Below are positions 45,984-48,604 of a stretch of DNA of 64,000 bases, piece by piece. Source of the DNA: an uncultured Thermodesulfobacteriota bacterium (GTDB taxonomy: Bacteria > Desulfobacterota > BSN033 > WVXP01). The stretch spans positions 920 through 64,919 of the forward strand of contig CAYGBK010000085.1 of the NCBI GenBank assembly GCA_964348095.1, written 5' to 3'. The position numbers and the translations under genes were made by a program. The notes below the pieces were generated by a model. That model was not told the DNA's origin, made no database searches, and saw only the letters and a list, made by a program, of their open reading frames with translations. Numbering within the stretch: position 1 is the stretch's first letter; each line of letters begins with the position of its first letter.

Positions 45984-46439
45984 GTGGTGAAGAGTGCGTC
46001 AAAGATGAGAAAAGCATTAACAGATCTTTTCAACACTCAGCATCTAGGTGTGCTGGCCACGCAGGGCGGAGGGCAGCCCTACAGCAGCTTGGTGGCGTTT
46101 ACTGCCACGGACGATCTCAAATACCTCGTGTTCGCCACAACCCGTGCCACACGCAAATATGCCAATCTTTCATCGGAATCACGAGTCGCCATGCTCATCG
46201 ACAATCGATCCAACCAGGATTCCGATTTCCATAATGCGATGGCAGTCACGGCAATGGGCACAGCCGAGGAAGTCAAAGACCGTGAGAAAGATCAACTCAT
46301 CAAACGATACCTGGCCAAACACCCCTACCTCGAGGGATTTGTCATGGCTCCCACCTGCGCCCTGCTGAAGGTGCGGGTGGACAAGTACTATGTGGTCAGC
46401 AGATTCCAGAATGTGATGGAACTCCACCTGAAATCATGA
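45984..46439 (+). CDS. Pyridoxamine 5'-phosphate oxidase family (split barrel) protein
   Basis: LGVLATQGGGQPYSSLVAFTATDDLKYLVFATTRATRKYANL is typical of the PNPOx-like family. Confidence 0.7.
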   Translation: MVKSASKMRKALTDLFNTQHLGVLATQGGGQPYSSLVAFTATDDLKYLVFATTRATRKYANLSSESRVAMLIDNRSNQDSDFHNAMAVTAMGTAEEVKDREKDQLIKRYLAKHPYLEGFVMAPTCALLKVRVDKYYVVSRFQNVMELHLKS

Positions 46440-48604
46440 AATCAGTCCTGTACCTCCATGAGATCGTTGACGAGAACCGGGAGCAGGTGGGAGGCAAGAG
46501 TCTCGCACTTGCGGCGATGGCACGAGACCGCATGAACGTGCCGGACGCAGCCTGCATCACCGCAGAGGTTTACACTGACTACGTGACATCGACGGGGTTG
46601 AGCGAACGAATTCTCCTCGAATTGAATCGCAAGAACTTCGAGGAGATGCGCTGGGAGGAGATGTGGGACGCTTCTTTACGGATCCGCAACATGTTTCTCA
46701 ACACGCCCATACCCGTGGGGCTATCGGCCATCCTAAGAGACGCTATCGAGCGAAGATTCAAGGGCAAGGCTGTTGTTATTCGATCCTCTGCGCCTGGTGA
46801 GGATTCGGCCAGGACCTCATTCGCTGGTCTGCATGAGTCTTATGTAAACGTCAAGAAAACCGATTCCATACTGGAACACATTCGGCTCGTGTGGGCATCC
46901 CTCTGGTCAGATGCCGCGTTACTCTATCGCCAGGAGCTCGGACTGGATTTTGAAAAGAGCACAATGGCAGTGCTTGTGCAGGAAATGGTTGTTGGAGGTG
47001 AGTCTGGTGTCACCTTTGGTCAGAATCCCAACGACGAATCTCAAGCTGTCATCGAGGCCGTATACGGATTGAACCAGGGACTCGTTGACGGGACGGTTGA
47101 GCCTGACAGGTGGATCCTCGACCGGGACACGGGCGAGATCATCTCCCATACGCCCGCACACCGTGAGAAAACAATCGTCCCTACACCGGAGGGCGTCCGG
47201 CAAGATCCATTGCCAAGGACGAAGGTGGACACCCCCCCACTGGATCGCAAAAGAATTCGGAAGGTATTTGACCTTGTCCGTGGAACTGAGCGTCTATTTG
47301 GGCCACCGCAGGATGTGGAGTGGACCTTTCGTAGAGATCTCCTCTTCGTTCTCCAATCGCGGCCGATCACAACCAGAAAGACCAGCGAGCCGACGGACAA
47401 TCGTGCCTGGTATCTTAGCCTCCGCCGGAGTTTCGAAAACCTCAAAACCCTTCGGCGCAGGATCGAAAAAGAACTCATTCCAGCCATGGTCGAGGAGGCC
47501 GAAAGCCTGAGTCGTCAGGATGTGACGAAACTAACCGATGCGGAACTTGCCACCGAGATCACCCGGAGATCCCACGTCCACGAGAAATGGGTGAAGATTT
47601 ACTGGAGTGATTTTATTCCCTTCGCCCACGGCGCCCGATTGTTCGGTCAGGCTTACAATGATACGGTGCGCCCCACTGACCCGTACGAGTTCATCGACCT
47701 TCTCGGTTCCACCAGTATGGCCAGCCTTGAAAGGAACCGGATGCTCGAGGGTATGGCGGGTATGATAAGAGAGAATCCACGTCTCGCCGAGAGTCTCAGG
47801 AGTCAGAAAGAGGATTCGGACCCAGGATTTACAACGGCCCTGGGCGAGTTTATGGAGAGGTTTGGCGATCTATTCCAGGGTCTCGCCCAGTCCACAAAAC
47901 AACGGGAGGCGATTTGCCGATTGCTTCTCGAAATGGCCAGCCGCGCCCCGACGGATGAAGAGAGACGATCAAAAGATGTGGAGGCACTGAAGAACAATTT
48001 CCTCTCACATTTCAGAGGGGCGCAGAAAGCTGAGGCTGCCGAGCTTCTCGATTTGGGTCGTGCGAGTTATCGATTGAGGGACGATGATAATATCTACCTC
48101 GGTAGAATTGAGGGGCCAATGCTCGCCGCAATCGATGAGGGACGACGGCGAATCGAAAAACGAGCCACCCTCGACGCACAGGGCATCGATACGGTGGAAC
48201 TTGTCAAGACCCTTGAGGATCCATCTTATGTCCCCAAAAGGCATCATACCGCCAAGAAGGCGGCTTCCGACGACGAATTGAAGGCAAGACAGCTCGTCGG
48301 TCAGCCTGCGGGTCCCGGCATTGCAAAAGGGAAAGCACGGGTCATCCTGGATCCGTCAGACCTATTCGATTTCAAGTCAAAGGAGATCCTCGTATGCGAC
48401 GCGGTTGAACCCCAAATGACCTTCGTCGTCCCCCTCTCTGCAGGAATCGTAGAACGACGGGGTGGTATGCTGATCCACGGGGCAATCATCGCGAGAGAAT
48501 ACGGACTCCCCTGTGTCACCGGCGTCCCGAACGCGATCTCTCTCATCCACACGGGAGATGAAGTCACCGTCGATGGCTATTTGGGAATCGTTGTTGTCGG
48601 ATAA
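46436..48604 (+). CDS. PEP-utilising phosphotransferase with PEP-synthase N-terminal ATP-grasp domain and C-terminal swivel phosphohistidine domain, but no PEP/pyruvate TIM-barrel domain (rifampicin-phosphotransferase-like architecture)
   Basis: N-terminal PPDK_N-like region (GGKS..LA.M...GL.VP..F...). The C-terminal GGMLIHGAIIAREYGLPCVTGV is the phosphohistidine mobile-domain motif. Overlaps the upstream gene by 4 nt. Confidence 0.7.
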   Translation: MKSVLYLHEIVDENREQVGGKSLALAAMARDRMNVPDAACITAEVYTDYVTSTGLSERILLELNRKNFEEMRWEEMWDASLRIRNMFLNTPIPVGLSAILRDAIERRFKGKAVVIRSSAPGEDSARTSFAGLHESYVNVKKTDSILEHIRLVWASLWSDAALLYRQELGLDFEKSTMAVLVQEMVVGGESGVTFGQNPNDESQAVIEAVYGLNQGLVDGTVEPDRWILDRDTGEIISHTPAHREKTIVPTPEGVRQDPLPRTKVDTPPLDRKRIRKVFDLVRGTERLFGPPQDVEWTFRRDLLFVLQSRPITTRKTSEPTDNRAWYLSLRRSFENLKTLRRRIEKELIPAMVEEAESLSRQDVTKLTDAELATEITRRSHVHEKWVKIYWSDFIPFAHGARLFGQAYNDTVRPTDPYEFIDLLGSTSMASLERNRMLEGMAGMIRENPRLAESLRSQKEDSDPGFTTALGEFMERFGDLFQGLAQSTKQREAICRLLLEMASRAPTDEERRSKDVEALKNNFLSHFRGAQKAEAAELLDLGRASYRLRDDDNIYLGRIEGPMLAAIDEGRRRIEKRATLDAQGIDTVELVKTLEDPSYVPKRHHTAKKAASDDELKARQLVGQPAGPGIAKGKARVILDPSDLFDFKSKEILVCDAVEPQMTFVVPLSAGIVERRGGMLIHGAIIAREYGLPCVTGVPNAISLIHTGDEVTVDGYLGIVVVG

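What the first reader, a model, noticed from the sequence alone, without database searches (positions are those of the whole stretch)
45984..48604. Split-barrel PNPOx-family protein translationally coupled to a PEP-synthase-like phosphotransferase lacking the PEP/pyruvate TIM barrel (rifampicin-phosphotransferase-like architecture)
The 722-aa protein has the ATP-grasp half of PEP synthase and the swivel phosphohistidine domain (GGMLIHGAIIAREYGLPCVTGV). Between them is an unrelated ~250-aa region instead of the PEP-binding domain. The only characterised enzymes with this design are small-molecule (antibiotic) phosphotransferases such as RPH. A 4-nt overlap couples it to a PNPOx-like FMN/F420-binding protein. 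This suggests a two-step modification of an unknown small molecule: phosphorylation plus redox or flavin-dependent chemistry. A second PNPOx paralogue lies 1 kb upstream.
Basis: partly seen in the sequence, partly recalled or inferred. Interest (0 to 1): 0.55.

Follow-up and report, generated by a model that had tools for sequence, protein, structure and literature searches.

The report
Rifampicin-kinase-like enzyme paired with flavoprotein
Two overlapping genes encode a small flavin-type protein and an uncharacterised relative of the rifampicin-inactivating kinase; the pair is kept together in hundreds of anaerobic microbes, usually beside genes that repair light and UV damage, so it more likely serves a light/UV stress response than antibiotic resistance.

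Summary
ORF 45984-46439 (151 aa, PNPOx_N split barrel) overlaps by 4 nt (ATGA) with ORF 46436-48604 (722 aa). The 722-aa protein has a PPDK_N ATP-grasp, about 295 unassigned residues, and a C-terminal swivel phosphohistidine domain (His681).

The middle region is not a PEP/pyruvate TIM barrel. AlphaFold predicts it as all-helical, and its only specific structural match is the rifampin-binding domain of RPH. By sequence it forms a closed family of about 450 clusters, all about 725 aa. So this is an RPH-type small-molecule dikinase, but not an RPH, PpsA or PigC orthologue.

- The PNPOx gene lies directly upstream in 70 of 70 evaluable loci, spanning Thermodesulfobacteriota, Anaerolineae, Planctomycetota and Methanosarcina.
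- In 49 of 83 loci the pair sits beside photolyase, FeS-photolyase-like DPRP, the tRNA s4U desulfidase RudS or UvdE, sometimes with overlapping stop and start codons. The window itself carries photolyase, DPRP, RudS and TspO.

I infer a two-protein module that combines phosphorylation with flavin chemistry and acts in the light/UV stress response. The substrate is unknown. I rate it a new variant of a known kind, of moderate interest.

The parts
45868..45897 (+). Sigma-70-like promoter candidate (TTGACA, 18 nt, TG-TAGATT) about 87 nt upstream of the PNPOx-like gene
   Evidence: It matches 10 of 12 consensus positions and has an extended -10 TG. The block is conserved in the close relatives L005 and L006. 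This is a consensus match only; function is not shown.
45984..46439 (+). 151-aa split-barrel PNPOx-family protein, probably binding FMN or a related cofactor; the obligate partner of the dikinase
   Evidence: Pfam PNPOx_N E 7.9e-18. It is below the cutoff for all F420-type NCBIfam families. The family profile matches PA4388 (7e-7), GSP26 (9e-7), HugZ-like HOZ proteins (1e-4) and PdxH (about 1e-3). T52, T56, R57 and K58 are invariant; I read these, from my own knowledge of PdxH, as aligning with its FMN-phosphate region (not computed here). A homologue lies directly upstream of the kinase gene in 70 of 70 loci.
46436..46439 (+). ATGA stop/start overlap (translational coupling)
   Evidence: Seen directly in the sequence. 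The same 4-nt overlap occurs in 53 of 70 related loci, and a 1-nt overlap in 10 more.
46436..48604 (+). 722-aa RPH-type small-molecule dikinase of an uncharacterised subfamily
   Evidence: Pfam domains. The best whole-chain structural match is RPH 5HV1, E 3.7e-32. Full-length homologues of 705-750 aa are found in at least 572 species genomes.
46481..47392 (+). ATP-grasp (PPDK_N) nucleotide-binding domain, residues 16-319
   Evidence: Pfam E 7e-70. It aligns with the RPH and PEP synthase ATP-grasp domains. The motifs VGGK(18-21), IRSSAPGED(115-123), PQDVEW(291-296) and LQSRPIT(306-312) are invariant or nearly invariant in the family.
47432..48217 (+). All-helical middle domain, residues about 333-594; presumed acceptor-substrate-binding domain
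   Evidence: AlphaFold predicts only helices, with no strands. When the domain is searched alone with Foldseek, the top five hits are all RPH (TM 0.45-0.54) and the next hits have TM below 0.25. There is no Pfam match in the library scanned, no NCBIfam stretch there and no PDB sequence match. The invariant motifs are FIPxAHGxRLxGQxYND (393-409; 47612-47662) and SYxLRDDDN (544-552; 48065-48091).
48374..48586 (+). Swivel phosphohistidine domain, residues 647-717; the phospho-carrier is His681 (codon 48476-48478)
   Evidence: Pfam PEP-utilizers E 3.7e-20. The RRGGMLIHGAIIAREYG block is invariant. It aligns with the RPH catalytic-His block GGLMTHGAVIAREYG. It lacks the regulatory Thr of PEP synthase (GGxTxH).
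44772..45146 (+). 124-aa small split-barrel protein resembling FMN-binding proteins; an accessory gene found in about 30% of related loci
   Evidence: Pfam PNPOx_N E 0.006 for the window protein and 1.7e-5 for a relative, both below the cutoff. The family profile matches 3IN6, an FMN-binding protein, at E 3.6e-5. It is present upstream of the pair in 23-26 loci.
45175..45594 (+). 139-aa conserved hypothetical protein lying between the small split-barrel gene and the pair
   Evidence: No Pfam or NCBIfam match. Homologues lie directly upstream of the PNPOx gene in 7 loci.
48622..49056 (-). 144-aa hydrophobic (membrane) protein convergent with the kinase gene
   Evidence: No Pfam match. It is conserved downstream of the kinase gene in 5 loci. 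The sequence is strongly hydrophobic.
49073..50341 (-). 422-aa flavin amine-oxidase-like protein resembling CrtI, HpnE and PPOX
   Evidence: Pfam Amino_oxidase E 1e-54. It is adjacent to the pair in 5 loci, including L003 and L012 where it lies on the other side of the pair.
31898..34922 (-). DNA photolyase (31898-33244) and DPRP/FeS-photolyase-like gene (33258-34922), 11 kb upstream in the same window
   Evidence: Pfam DNA_photolyase E 2e-29 and DPRP E 2e-45. They are homologous to the genes that directly flank the pair in other loci.
56390..57340 (+). RudS-type TudS-DUF1722 gene (tRNA 4-thiouridine desulfidase), 8 kb downstream
   Evidence: Pfam 2-thiour_desulf E 1e-43 and DUF1722 E 6e-43. 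It is 67% identical to the RudS-type genes that flank the pair in 24 loci. RudS function and its place in light-responsive operons: PMC11417400.
59287..59796 (+). TspO/MBR (porphyrin-binding membrane protein), 11 kb downstream
   Evidence: Pfam TspO_MBR E 8e-51. Its relation to photo-oxidative stress rests on my own knowledge of the family and was not tested here.

Best explanation
The 722-aa protein is a single-chain dikinase built like rifampin phosphotransferase.

Mechanism, inferred from the family: ATP binds in the N-terminal ATP-grasp domain. Its beta-phosphate is transferred to His681 of the C-terminal swivel domain, releasing AMP and Pi. The swivel domain then moves to the all-helical middle domain and passes the phosphate to a hydroxyl or carbonyl oxygen of a small acceptor bound there. 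The conserved motifs FIPxAHGxRLxGQxYND and SYxLRDDDN probably form that acceptor site.

The middle domain defines a closed, uncharacterised subfamily. The enzyme is therefore not a PEP synthase, an RPH or a PigC.

It works together with the 151-aa split-barrel protein translated from the overlapping upstream gene. That protein probably binds FMN. The two may form a complex, or the partner may oxidise or reduce the same molecule before or after phosphorylation.

The pair is repeatedly placed in operons or clusters with CPD photolyase, FeS-type photolyase-like DPRP, the tRNA s4U desulfidase RudS, UvdE, NmrA-DUF2867 and SOUL proteins. I infer that its role is in the response to light, UV or photo-oxidative damage in anaerobic bacteria and Methanosarcina. 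The most plausible action is on a light-sensitive or light-generated small molecule, such as a flavin, pterin, porphyrin or quinone-type cofactor or its photoproduct.

Shown: the architecture, the conservation and the synteny. Inferred: the catalytic mechanism (from homology), the light/UV role (from context) and the class of substrate (speculative).
For: Architecture:
- Pfam finds PPDK_N and PEP-utilizers with an unassigned middle region.
- The AlphaFold model (pLDDT 79.8) shows an all-helical region at residues 333-594.
- The best whole-chain Foldseek match is RPH 5HV1, E 3.7e-32.
- With the middle domain alone, the top five hits are all RPH (TM 0.45-0.54, probability 0.98-1.0) and all other hits have TM below 0.25.
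- The catalytic motifs of the ATP-grasp and the GGxxxHGAxIAREYG His block are invariant.

Distinct subfamily:
- An exhaustive phmmer search with the middle domain against 1.84 billion representatives gives only 466 hits. The 150 best listed are about 700-790 aa or shorter pieces, with the match in the middle of the long ones.
- Profile searches reach nothing else.
- All named NCBIfam models match only the two terminal domains and score far below their cutoffs.

Obligate pairing:
- A PNPOx homologue is directly upstream on the same strand in 70 of 70 evaluable loci. The overlap is 4 nt in 53 of them.
- The loci span Thermodesulfobacteriota, Anaerolineae, Planctomycetota, Ca. Abyssobacteria and Methanosarcina, while the flanking genes differ.

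Light/UV context:
- Recurrent neighbours are photolyase (17 loci), DPRP (14), RudS (24), UvdE (5), NmrA-DUF2867 (25), SOUL (6) and amine oxidase (5).
- 49 of 83 loci have at least one of the first four.
- The stop codon of the photolyase or DPRP gene overlaps the PNPOx start in L047, L052 and L012.
- The window itself carries photolyase, DPRP, RudS and TspO.
- RudS genes are documented members of light-responsive operons (PMC11417400).
- PNPOx, SOUL and photolyase families recur next to rhodopsin genes (bioRxiv 10.1101/2021.02.16.431466).
Against: - No substrate is identified and nothing was assayed.
- The light/UV role rests on gene neighbourhood only.
- Many of the 83 loci are related Desulfobacterales MAGs, so the counts are not independent events.
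- In the window the photolyase and RudS genes lie 8-12 kb from the pair.
- In Methanosarcina sp. Mfa9 (L083) and Desulfonema magnum (L081), where I read the neighbours, none has a light-related function.
- I found no shared operator motif linking the pair to the photolyase or RudS promoters.
- The structural match of the isolated middle domain to RPH is specific but weak (E 0.05-0.2, rmsd about 6 A).
- The cofactor of the split-barrel partner (FMN, FAD, F420 or haem) is not resolved.
Confidence: 0.55

Rival explanations
1. It is an antibiotic- or xenobiotic-inactivating phosphotransferase, a resistance enzyme like RPH. The PNPOx-like protein would perform a second modification of the drug.
For: It has the same three-domain order as RPH, and RPH is the best structural match. 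Some sources label family members 'rifampicin phosphotransferase'.
Against: The RPH equivalog scores are 271 against a cutoff of 999, and 202 against 1700. The middle domain is about 135 aa shorter than the RIF-binding domain and has no sequence relation to it. The family shows 60-70% identity and fixed synteny across phyla, including an archaeon, which is unlike accessory resistance genes. The neighbours are repair and stress genes rather than efflux or biosynthetic genes. Stogios et al. showed that distant clades of this superfamily do not confer rifampin resistance (PMC4844700).
Confidence: 0.06
2. It is a catabolic phenol-type dikinase, functionally like PpsAB, HpeHI or CreHI. It would trap a phenolic or quinol compound as a phosphate ester. 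The split-barrel flavoprotein would first reduce a quinone or nitro-aromatic to the phenol or quinol. This could serve anaerobic aromatic degradation or quinone detoxification.
For: The characterised small-molecule relatives phosphorylate phenolic hydroxyls. From my own knowledge, PNPOx/FDOR-type split barrels include quinone reductases. The carriers are anaerobes, many from lineages known for aromatic degradation.
Against: No carboxylase, UbiD/UbiX-type, benzoyl-CoA pathway or other catabolic genes recur next to the pair. The recurrent neighbours are photolyases, RudS and UvdE. The middle domain is not detectably related by sequence to anything outside its own family.
Confidence: 0.12
3. The phosphate is passed to a protein rather than a metabolite. 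As in Enzyme I to HPr transfer, the helical domain would dock the co-translated split-barrel protein. That protein, or its bound cofactor, would be the phospho-acceptor, making this a regulatory or cofactor-loading device.
For: Synteny is 70 of 70 with translational coupling, which is stricter than usual for consecutive pathway enzymes and suggests a stoichiometric complex. From my own knowledge, swivel His domains phosphorylate proteins in the PTS.
Against: The middle domain resembles the small-molecule-binding domain of RPH, not the HPr-binding subdomain of Enzyme I. I identified no candidate phospho-acceptor residue in the partner from the conserved positions. No complex prediction could be run.
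Confidence: 0.1
4. It is an alternative vitamin B6 salvage pair: a pyridoxine/pyridoxamine kinase plus an oxygen-independent PNP/PMP oxidase.
For: The kinase-plus-PNPOx pairing mirrors PdxK/PdxH. The partner's profile weakly matches PdxH (E about 1e-3). From my own knowledge, B6 vitamers are light-sensitive.
Against: The partner is 151 aa and the only PNPOx-related Pfam matches are N-terminal split-barrel families. No PdxH model is among its NCBIfam matches. Its best structural relatives are GSP26 and PA4388 rather than PdxH.
Confidence: 0.05
5. It is an ordinary PEP synthase (PpsA) with a diverged PEP/pyruvate-binding domain.
For: Automatic annotations call family members 'pyruvate, water dikinase'. 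The ATP-grasp domain matches the PpsA models.
Against: The domain order is wrong: the His domain is C-terminal and not central. There is no PEP-utilizers_C TIM barrel in Pfam. The middle region is all-helical. The PpsA equivalog scores are 288 against 598 and 274 against 740. The regulatory Thr next to the catalytic His is absent.
Confidence: 0.01

Closest known systems
Rifampin phosphotransferase RPH (e.g. RPH-Lm; PDB 5FBS, 5FBT, 5FBU, 5HV1; NCBIfam NF041857)
   Same: It is a single chain with an N-terminal ATP-grasp, a central all-helical acceptor-binding domain and a C-terminal swivel phosphohistidine domain. The His block GGxxxHGAxIAREYG is shared. RPH is the best structural match for the whole chain and for the middle domain alone. 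The presumed dikinase chemistry is the same: ATP to AMP + Pi + phospho-acceptor.
   Different: The middle domain is about 295 aa against about 430 aa, with no detectable sequence similarity and its own invariant motifs. The protein scores far below the equivalog cutoffs. It is obligately paired with a split-barrel protein, and its genomic context is photolyase, RudS and UvdE rather than resistance.
Two-component phenol-type dikinases: phenylphosphate synthase PpsAB, HpeHI, CreHI
   Same: They have the same three modules and a His-swivel mechanism acting on small hydroxylated acceptors. The HpeI ATP-grasp (PDB 9GOJ) matches the N-terminal domain.
   Different: Those enzymes are split into two polypeptides (ATP-grasp separate from acceptor plus swivel) and sit in catabolic operons. 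Here there is one chain, a different middle domain, and a flavoprotein partner in place of a carboxylase.
Prodigiosin ligases PigC, RedH and HapC
   Same: They share the domain order and ATP-dependent activation through the swivel His.
   Different: NCBIfam scores are 252 against 1300 and 236 against 1350, and only the terminal domains match. There is no pigment biosynthesis context.
PEP synthase / pyruvate phosphate dikinase
   Same: The ATP-grasp and swivel His domains are homologous.
   Different: The domain order differs, the PEP/pyruvate TIM barrel is missing and there is no regulatory Thr.
General stress protein 26 / small PNPOx-like FMN-binding split barrels (PDB 3EC6, 2ARZ); PdxH
   Same: The 151-aa partner has the split-barrel PNPOx_N fold signature, and I read its invariant T-R-K as a cofactor-phosphate motif (from my own knowledge of PdxH, not computed here).
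   Different: It shows no Pfam match beyond N-terminal split-barrel families. It is below the cutoffs of the F420 families. Its function and cofactor are unknown. It is always encoded immediately upstream of a dikinase.

Membership tests
PEP synthase (pyruvate, water dikinase; TIGR01418 / NF005057) | C-terminal PEP/pyruvate-binding TIM barrel (PEP-utilizers_C) | tested here: not met
   There is no Pfam match for it. The region between the ATP-grasp and His domains is all-helical in two AlphaFold models.
PEP synthase (pyruvate, water dikinase; TIGR01418 / NF005057) | Domain order ATP-grasp, central His domain, barrel; whole-protein score above the equivalog cutoff | tested here: not met
   The His domain is C-terminal, at residues 647-717. 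The scores are 287.8 against 598 and 273.5 against 739.75.
PEP synthase (pyruvate, water dikinase; TIGR01418 / NF005057) | Regulatory Thr two residues before the catalytic His (GGxT[S/C]H) | tested here: not met
   The motif here is GGMLIH and is invariant in the family. The PEP synthase motif is as described in PMC12167813.
RPH-type small-molecule dikinase superfamily (Stogios et al. 2016) | ATP-grasp, then helical acceptor domain, then C-terminal swivel His, in one chain or as two components | tested here: met
   The best whole-chain and middle-domain structural matches are RPH.
RPH-type small-molecule dikinase superfamily (Stogios et al. 2016) | Conserved ATP-grasp catalytic motifs and phospho-carrier His | tested here: met
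   K21 is nearly invariant; R116, E295, Q307, R309 and H681 are invariant among 48 homologues and align with RPH.
RPH-type small-molecule dikinase superfamily (Stogios et al. 2016) | Dikinase activity (ATP to AMP + Pi + phosphorylated acceptor) | not testable with these tools
   This needs an enzyme assay.
Rifamycin-inactivating phosphotransferase proper (NF041857 / NF000283; clade A of Stogios et al.) | Equivalog-level sequence similarity, including the three-subdomain RIF-binding domain with its 12 signature blocks | tested here: not met
   The scores are 271 against 999 and 202 against 1700, and only the terminal domains match. The middle-domain profile finds no RPH sequence in the PDB, and the exhaustive search finds only its own family.
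Rifamycin-inactivating phosphotransferase proper (NF041857 / NF000283; clade A of Stogios et al.) | Phosphorylation of rifamycins / resistance phenotype | not testable with these tools
   This needs MIC measurements and an enzyme assay.
Prodigiosin ligase PigC/RedH (NF052631 / NF052632) | Equivalog score and pigment-cluster context | tested here: not met
   The scores are 252 against 1300 and 236 against 1350. No pig/red genes appear among the recurrent neighbours.
Pyridoxamine 5'-phosphate oxidase PdxH (for the 151-aa partner) | PNPOx N-terminal barrel plus C-terminal dimerisation/substrate region, about 200-220 aa, equivalog-level match | tested here: not met
   Only PNPOx_N and related N-terminal barrel families match, in a 151-aa protein. 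No PdxH model is among the NCBIfam matches. The profile match to PdxH structures is weak (about 1e-3) and covers only residues 21-71.
F420-dependent PPOX-class oxidoreductases (TIGR03618 and relatives) | Score above the family cutoff | tested here: not met
   The best score is 47.1 against a cutoff of 79.05. From my own knowledge, most carrier lineages are not known F420 producers.
Light-responsive (photolyase/RudS-type) gene clusters | Physical linkage to photolyase, RudS or UvdE genes in independent lineages | tested here: met
   49 of 83 loci are linked. Stop/start overlaps with photolyase or DPRP occur in Anaerolineae (L047, L052) and Syntrophaceae (L012), and the arrangements differ in Desulfobacterales and Phycisphaerae.
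Light-responsive (photolyase/RudS-type) gene clusters | Light- or UV-dependent expression / shared regulator site | tested here: inconclusive
   Inspection of upstream regions by eye found no shared operator. No expression data are available.

The most novel reading that the evidence does not exclude
The dikinase and its split-barrel partner form an obligate two-protein enzyme that defines a previously unrecognised branch of the light/UV damage response in anaerobic bacteria and Methanosarcina. It would be an ATP-driven phosphorylation coupled to flavin chemistry that repairs, recycles or neutralises a photosensitive cofactor or photoproduct, for example a flavin, deazaflavin, pterin antenna chromophore, porphyrin or quinone. 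It would act alongside photolyases and RudS.
Probability: 0.3. Interest if true: 0.7.

Novelty: new variant of a known kind. Interest (0 to 1): 0.52.

Why it matters
RPH homologues were described in 2016 as a large, unexplored family of small-molecule dikinases, and only a handful of substrates are known: rifamycins, phenols, prodigiosin precursors and flavonoids.

This subfamily is sharply delimited and highly conserved, with 60-70% identity across phyla. It is present in at least 572 species genomes and is always encoded with one specific flavoprotein partner. That makes it a clean target for discovering a new function.

Its repeated placement inside photolyase, RudS and UvdE clusters gives a concrete and testable physiological hypothesis. 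It would also add a new biochemical activity to the short list of light/UV-response functions, in organisms usually thought of as living in the dark.

It also corrects routine annotations ('pyruvate, water dikinase', 'rifampicin phosphotransferase') that overstate both central-metabolism and resistance gene counts in metagenomes.

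Tried and rejected
1. Ordinary PpsA: rejected on domain order, the absent TIM barrel, the sub-cutoff scores and the missing regulatory Thr.
2. RPH orthologue: rejected.
3. Sequence link from the middle domain to any other family: three searches reached only the same family or chance hits. These were an exhaustive phmmer search, a profile against the PDB and a profile against 5.8 billion proteins. 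The precomputed Pfam accession PF27448 appears on middle-domain-only fragments, but it is absent from the local Pfam copy, so its name is unknown to me.
4. Anti-phage defence component: no PADLOC match.
5. Riboswitch or other RNA element upstream: no Rfam match in 43000-51000.
6. Shared operator upstream of the pair, RudS, NmrA-DUF2867 and photolyase genes: I inspected the upstream sequences of the window and of eight Desulfobacterales-type loci by eye. There are locally conserved AT-rich blocks and a near-palindrome (CACATATACAGTG-like) before RudS, but nothing is shared with the pair's promoter. I did not pursue this further.
7. The 124-aa upstream protein as a paralogue of the 151-aa protein: hhalign is negative.
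8. Literature: no paper in the library links a PEP-synthase-like or RPH-like kinase with a PNPOx protein and photolyase. A preprint on anaerobic riboflavin degradation that mentions pyridoxamine turned out to be unrelated.
9. Possible split (two-component) forms: 360-450-aa hits on long contigs were not resolved from frameshift or fragment artefacts.

Full report
**1. Observation**

ORF listing and translation confirm two co-directional genes.
- 45984-46439 encodes 151 aa with a GTG start, preceded by GAGGGG.
- 46436-48604 encodes 722 aa.
- The two share the sequence ATGA, so the start codon of the second overlaps the stop codon of the first by 4 nt.

Pfam assigns PNPOx_N (E 7.9e-18) to the first protein. 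To the second it assigns PPDK_N (residues 16-319, E 7e-70) and the PEP-utilizers mobile domain (residues 647-717, E 3.7e-20). Residues about 320-615 are left unassigned.

The quoted motif sits at residues 676-697, with His681 encoded at 48476-48478. Full-length homologues at 60-90% identity (E = 0) show these are real, conserved genes.

**2. What the 722-aa protein is**

Every named NCBIfam model matches only the two terminal domains and scores far below its cutoff. This holds for PEP synthase, RPH, PigC and RedH; for example PpsA scores 288 against 598 and RPH 271 against 999.

An AlphaFold model built on 48 homologues (pLDDT 79.8) shows an ATP-grasp, then an exclusively helical region (helices from residue 333 to 594), then a beta-rich swivel domain. 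A second model of the middle region alone agrees (pLDDT 80.6).

Foldseek against the PDB ranks rifampin phosphotransferase first for the whole chain (5HV1, E 3.7e-32). For the isolated middle domain, the top five hits are all RPH-Lm entries (TM 0.45-0.54, probability 0.98-1.0). Everything below them is unrelated coiled-coil noise with TM below 0.25.

By sequence, the middle domain is a closed family.
- An exhaustive phmmer search of 1.84 billion cluster representatives returns only 466 hits. The 150 best listed are about 700-790 aa or shorter pieces, with the match in the middle of the long ones.
- A profile search of the PDB finds no credible match, only marginal unrelated hits at E 0.016 or weaker.
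- A profile search of 5.8 billion proteins finds only the same family.

Invariant residues:
- The ATP-grasp motifs VGGK, RSSAPGED, PQDxEW and QSRPIT.
- The His block RRGGMLIHGAIIAREYG, which is RPH-like and lacks the regulatory Thr of PEP synthase.
- Two middle-domain motifs, FIPxAHGxRLxGQxYND (393-409) and SYxLRDDDN (544-552).

The protein is therefore an RPH-type small-molecule dikinase. It belongs to the 'large unexplored' superfamily described by Stogios et al. (PMC4844700). That superfamily also contains the two-component phenol dikinases PpsAB, HpeHI and CreHI (PMC12167813) and the PigC-type ligases. The protein is an orthologue of none of these.

**3. The partner**

The 151-aa protein is a short split-barrel PNPOx-family member.
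- It is below the cutoffs of the F420-type families.
- It shows no Pfam match beyond N-terminal split-barrel families.
- Its family profile matches PA4388 (7e-7), general stress protein 26 (9e-7), HugZ-like HOZ haem proteins (about 1e-4) and PdxH (about 1e-3).
- T52, T56, R57 and K58 are invariant; from my own knowledge of PdxH, not computed here, I read these as aligning with its cofactor-phosphate-binding stretch. This suggests a phosphate-bearing flavin, but the cofactor is not settled.

**4. Conservation of the pair**

They are mostly Thermodesulfobacteriota (Desulfobacterales, Syntrophales, Desulfatiglandales and others), Anaerolineales, Planctomycetota and Ca. Abyssobacteria. Cultured carriers include Desulfonema magnum and Methanosarcina.

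In 70 of 70 non-redundant loci where the 5' end of the kinase gene is on the contig, a homologue of the 151-aa protein lies immediately upstream on the same strand.
- 53 loci have a 4-nt overlap.
- 10 loci have a 1-nt overlap.
- Only one evaluable locus, a Methanosarcina (L084), has a long gap, about 170 nt.

The flanking genes vary completely between loci. Synteny this strict, across two domains of life, argues for a joint function and possibly a physical complex.

**5. Context**

I clustered all ORFs from the 83 loci and annotated cluster representatives. The recurrent neighbours, with counts, are:

| Neighbour | Loci |
|---|---|
| NmrA/NAD-binding-DUF2867 | 25 |
| TudS-DUF1722 (= RudS) | 24 |
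| 124-aa split-barrel protein | 23-26 |
| CPD-type DNA photolyase (PF00875) | 17 |
| DPRP / FeS-type photolyase-related (PF04244) | 14 |
| second, distant PNPOx-type paralogue on the opposite strand | 12 |
| SOUL haem-binding | 6 |
| UV endonuclease UvdE | 5 |
| amine-oxidase-like flavoprotein | 5 |

At least one of photolyase, DPRP, RudS or UvdE is present in 49 of 83 loci, many of which are short contigs.

The arrangements differ between lineages, so the linkage is not one inherited block.
- In Anaerolineae (L047, L052) the photolyase stop codon overlaps the PNPOx start.
- In Syntrophaceae (L012) the DPRP stop codon does so.
- In Desulfobacterales, RudS and NmrA-DUF2867 follow the kinase gene.
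- In a Phycisphaerae MAG (L023), NmrA-DUF2867 and photolyase are convergent downstream.

About 60 of roughly 830 called neighbour genes belong to these four families. From general knowledge, such genes make up about 0.1% of a genome, which implies an enrichment of well over tenfold.

RudS is an experimentally characterised tRNA 4-thiouridine desulfidase that relieves UVA-induced growth delay and typically sits in light-responsive operons (PMC11417400). PNPOx, SOUL and photolyase families were also noted together near rhodopsin genes.

The window itself carries several of these genes:
- photolyase, 31898-33244 (-)
- DPRP, 33258-34922 (-)
- amine-oxidase-like gene, 49073-50341 (-)
- RudS, 56390-57340 (+)
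- TspO, 59287-59796 (+)

In the window they are dispersed over about 28 kb rather than adjacent to the pair.

**6. Local anatomy in the window**

The 124-aa split-barrel gene (44772-45146) and a 139-aa conserved hypothetical gene (45175-45594) precede the pair. A 389-nt spacer follows, containing a good sigma-70-like promoter (45868-45897) that is conserved in close relatives. A 144-aa membrane protein and the amine-oxidase-like gene lie convergently downstream. I found no Rfam element and no PADLOC match.

**7. Interpretation**

Shown:
- the architecture;
- the RPH-like fold of the middle domain;
- the closed subfamily;
- the obligate pairing;
- the recurrent linkage to light/UV genes.

Inferred from homology: the dikinase mechanism, in which ATP phosphorylates His681 and the phosphate then passes to an acceptor in the helical domain, yielding AMP and Pi.

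Inferred from context: a role in the light, UV or photo-oxidative stress response, acting on a photosensitive or photo-generated small molecule together with the flavoprotein partner.

The substrate remains unknown. Candidates are flavin, deazaflavin or pterin chromophores or their photoproducts, porphyrins, quinols and B6 vitamers. These are speculation to be tested.

Caveats:
- Many loci are phylogenetically related.
- In Methanosarcina sp. Mfa9 (L083) and Desulfonema magnum (L081), where I read the neighbours, none is light-related.
- I found no shared regulatory motif.

**8. Verdict**

Its functional framing, an antibiotic-like modification, is not supported. The statement that only antibiotic kinases share this design is outdated.

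The finding is a new variant within the known RPH-type dikinase superfamily. Two features appear not to have been described before: the obligate split-barrel partner and the photolyase/RudS neighbourhood. No paper in the searched library links these. Interest is moderate, at about 0.5.

Noticed in passing
window 31898-34922 (-): A CPD-type DNA photolyase (448 aa) and a DPRP / FeS-photolyase-like protein (554 aa) are encoded back to back in what looks like a strict anaerobe (Thermodesulfobacteriota MAG). They are homologues of the genes that directly flank the PNPOx-kinase pair in other genomes.
   Followed up: partly
window 56390-57340 (+), 58392-58847 (+), 59287-59796 (+): A RudS-type TudS-DUF1722 tRNA s4U desulfidase, a CoxG/SRPBCC protein and a TspO/MBR protein lie downstream of the pair. 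Together with the photolyases, this makes the 32-60 kb stretch unusually rich in genes associated with light or photo-oxidative stress.
   Followed up: partly
L029, L031, L032, L033, L037, L038, L040, L041, L043, L045, L057, L078 (for example L029:7248-7673, - strand): A second PNPOx-type gene of about 140-150 aa, 25-34% identical to the partner, lies on the opposite strand just downstream of the kinase gene and divergent from RudS. It is seen in a Desulfobacterales subgroup, so those clusters hold three split-barrel proteins.
   Followed up: partly
L027:2583-3470 and four other loci: A UV-damage endonuclease UvdE gene (Pfam E 4e-68) is next to the pair in 5 loci.
   Followed up: partly
P0124, P0295, P0319 (360-380 aa, middle domain only) and P0305, P0317 (about 440 aa, middle plus swivel) on contigs of 18-300 kb: These may be naturally split (two-component, HpeHI-like) versions of the dikinase, or frameshift artefacts of long-read assemblies. 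The precomputed Pfam accession PF27448 maps to the middle domain in these proteins but is absent from the local Pfam copy.
   Followed up: no
L031:7799 upstream, L032:4055 upstream, L040:7802 upstream (intergenic region between the second PNPOx gene and RudS): A conserved near-palindromic block (GTATCACAT[A/C/T]TAC[A/T]GTG[C/T]TA) lies upstream of RudS in several Desulfobacterales loci. It could be an operator (LexA-like or LitR-like). It is not found upstream of the PNPOx-kinase pair.
   Followed up: partly
window 50797-51777 (-), 59915-60976 (+): A Methyltransf_33 (EgtD-like histidine-specific methyltransferase family) protein and a protein with NAL1 N- and C-terminal domains (a plant NARROW LEAF 1-type protease family) are encoded nearby. 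Both are unusual annotations for a deltaproteobacterial MAG.
   Followed up: no
window 43729-44199 (+) and L001, L005, L006: A DUF4174 protein with a signal-peptide-like N-terminus recurs upstream of the module in the closest relatives.
   Followed up: no
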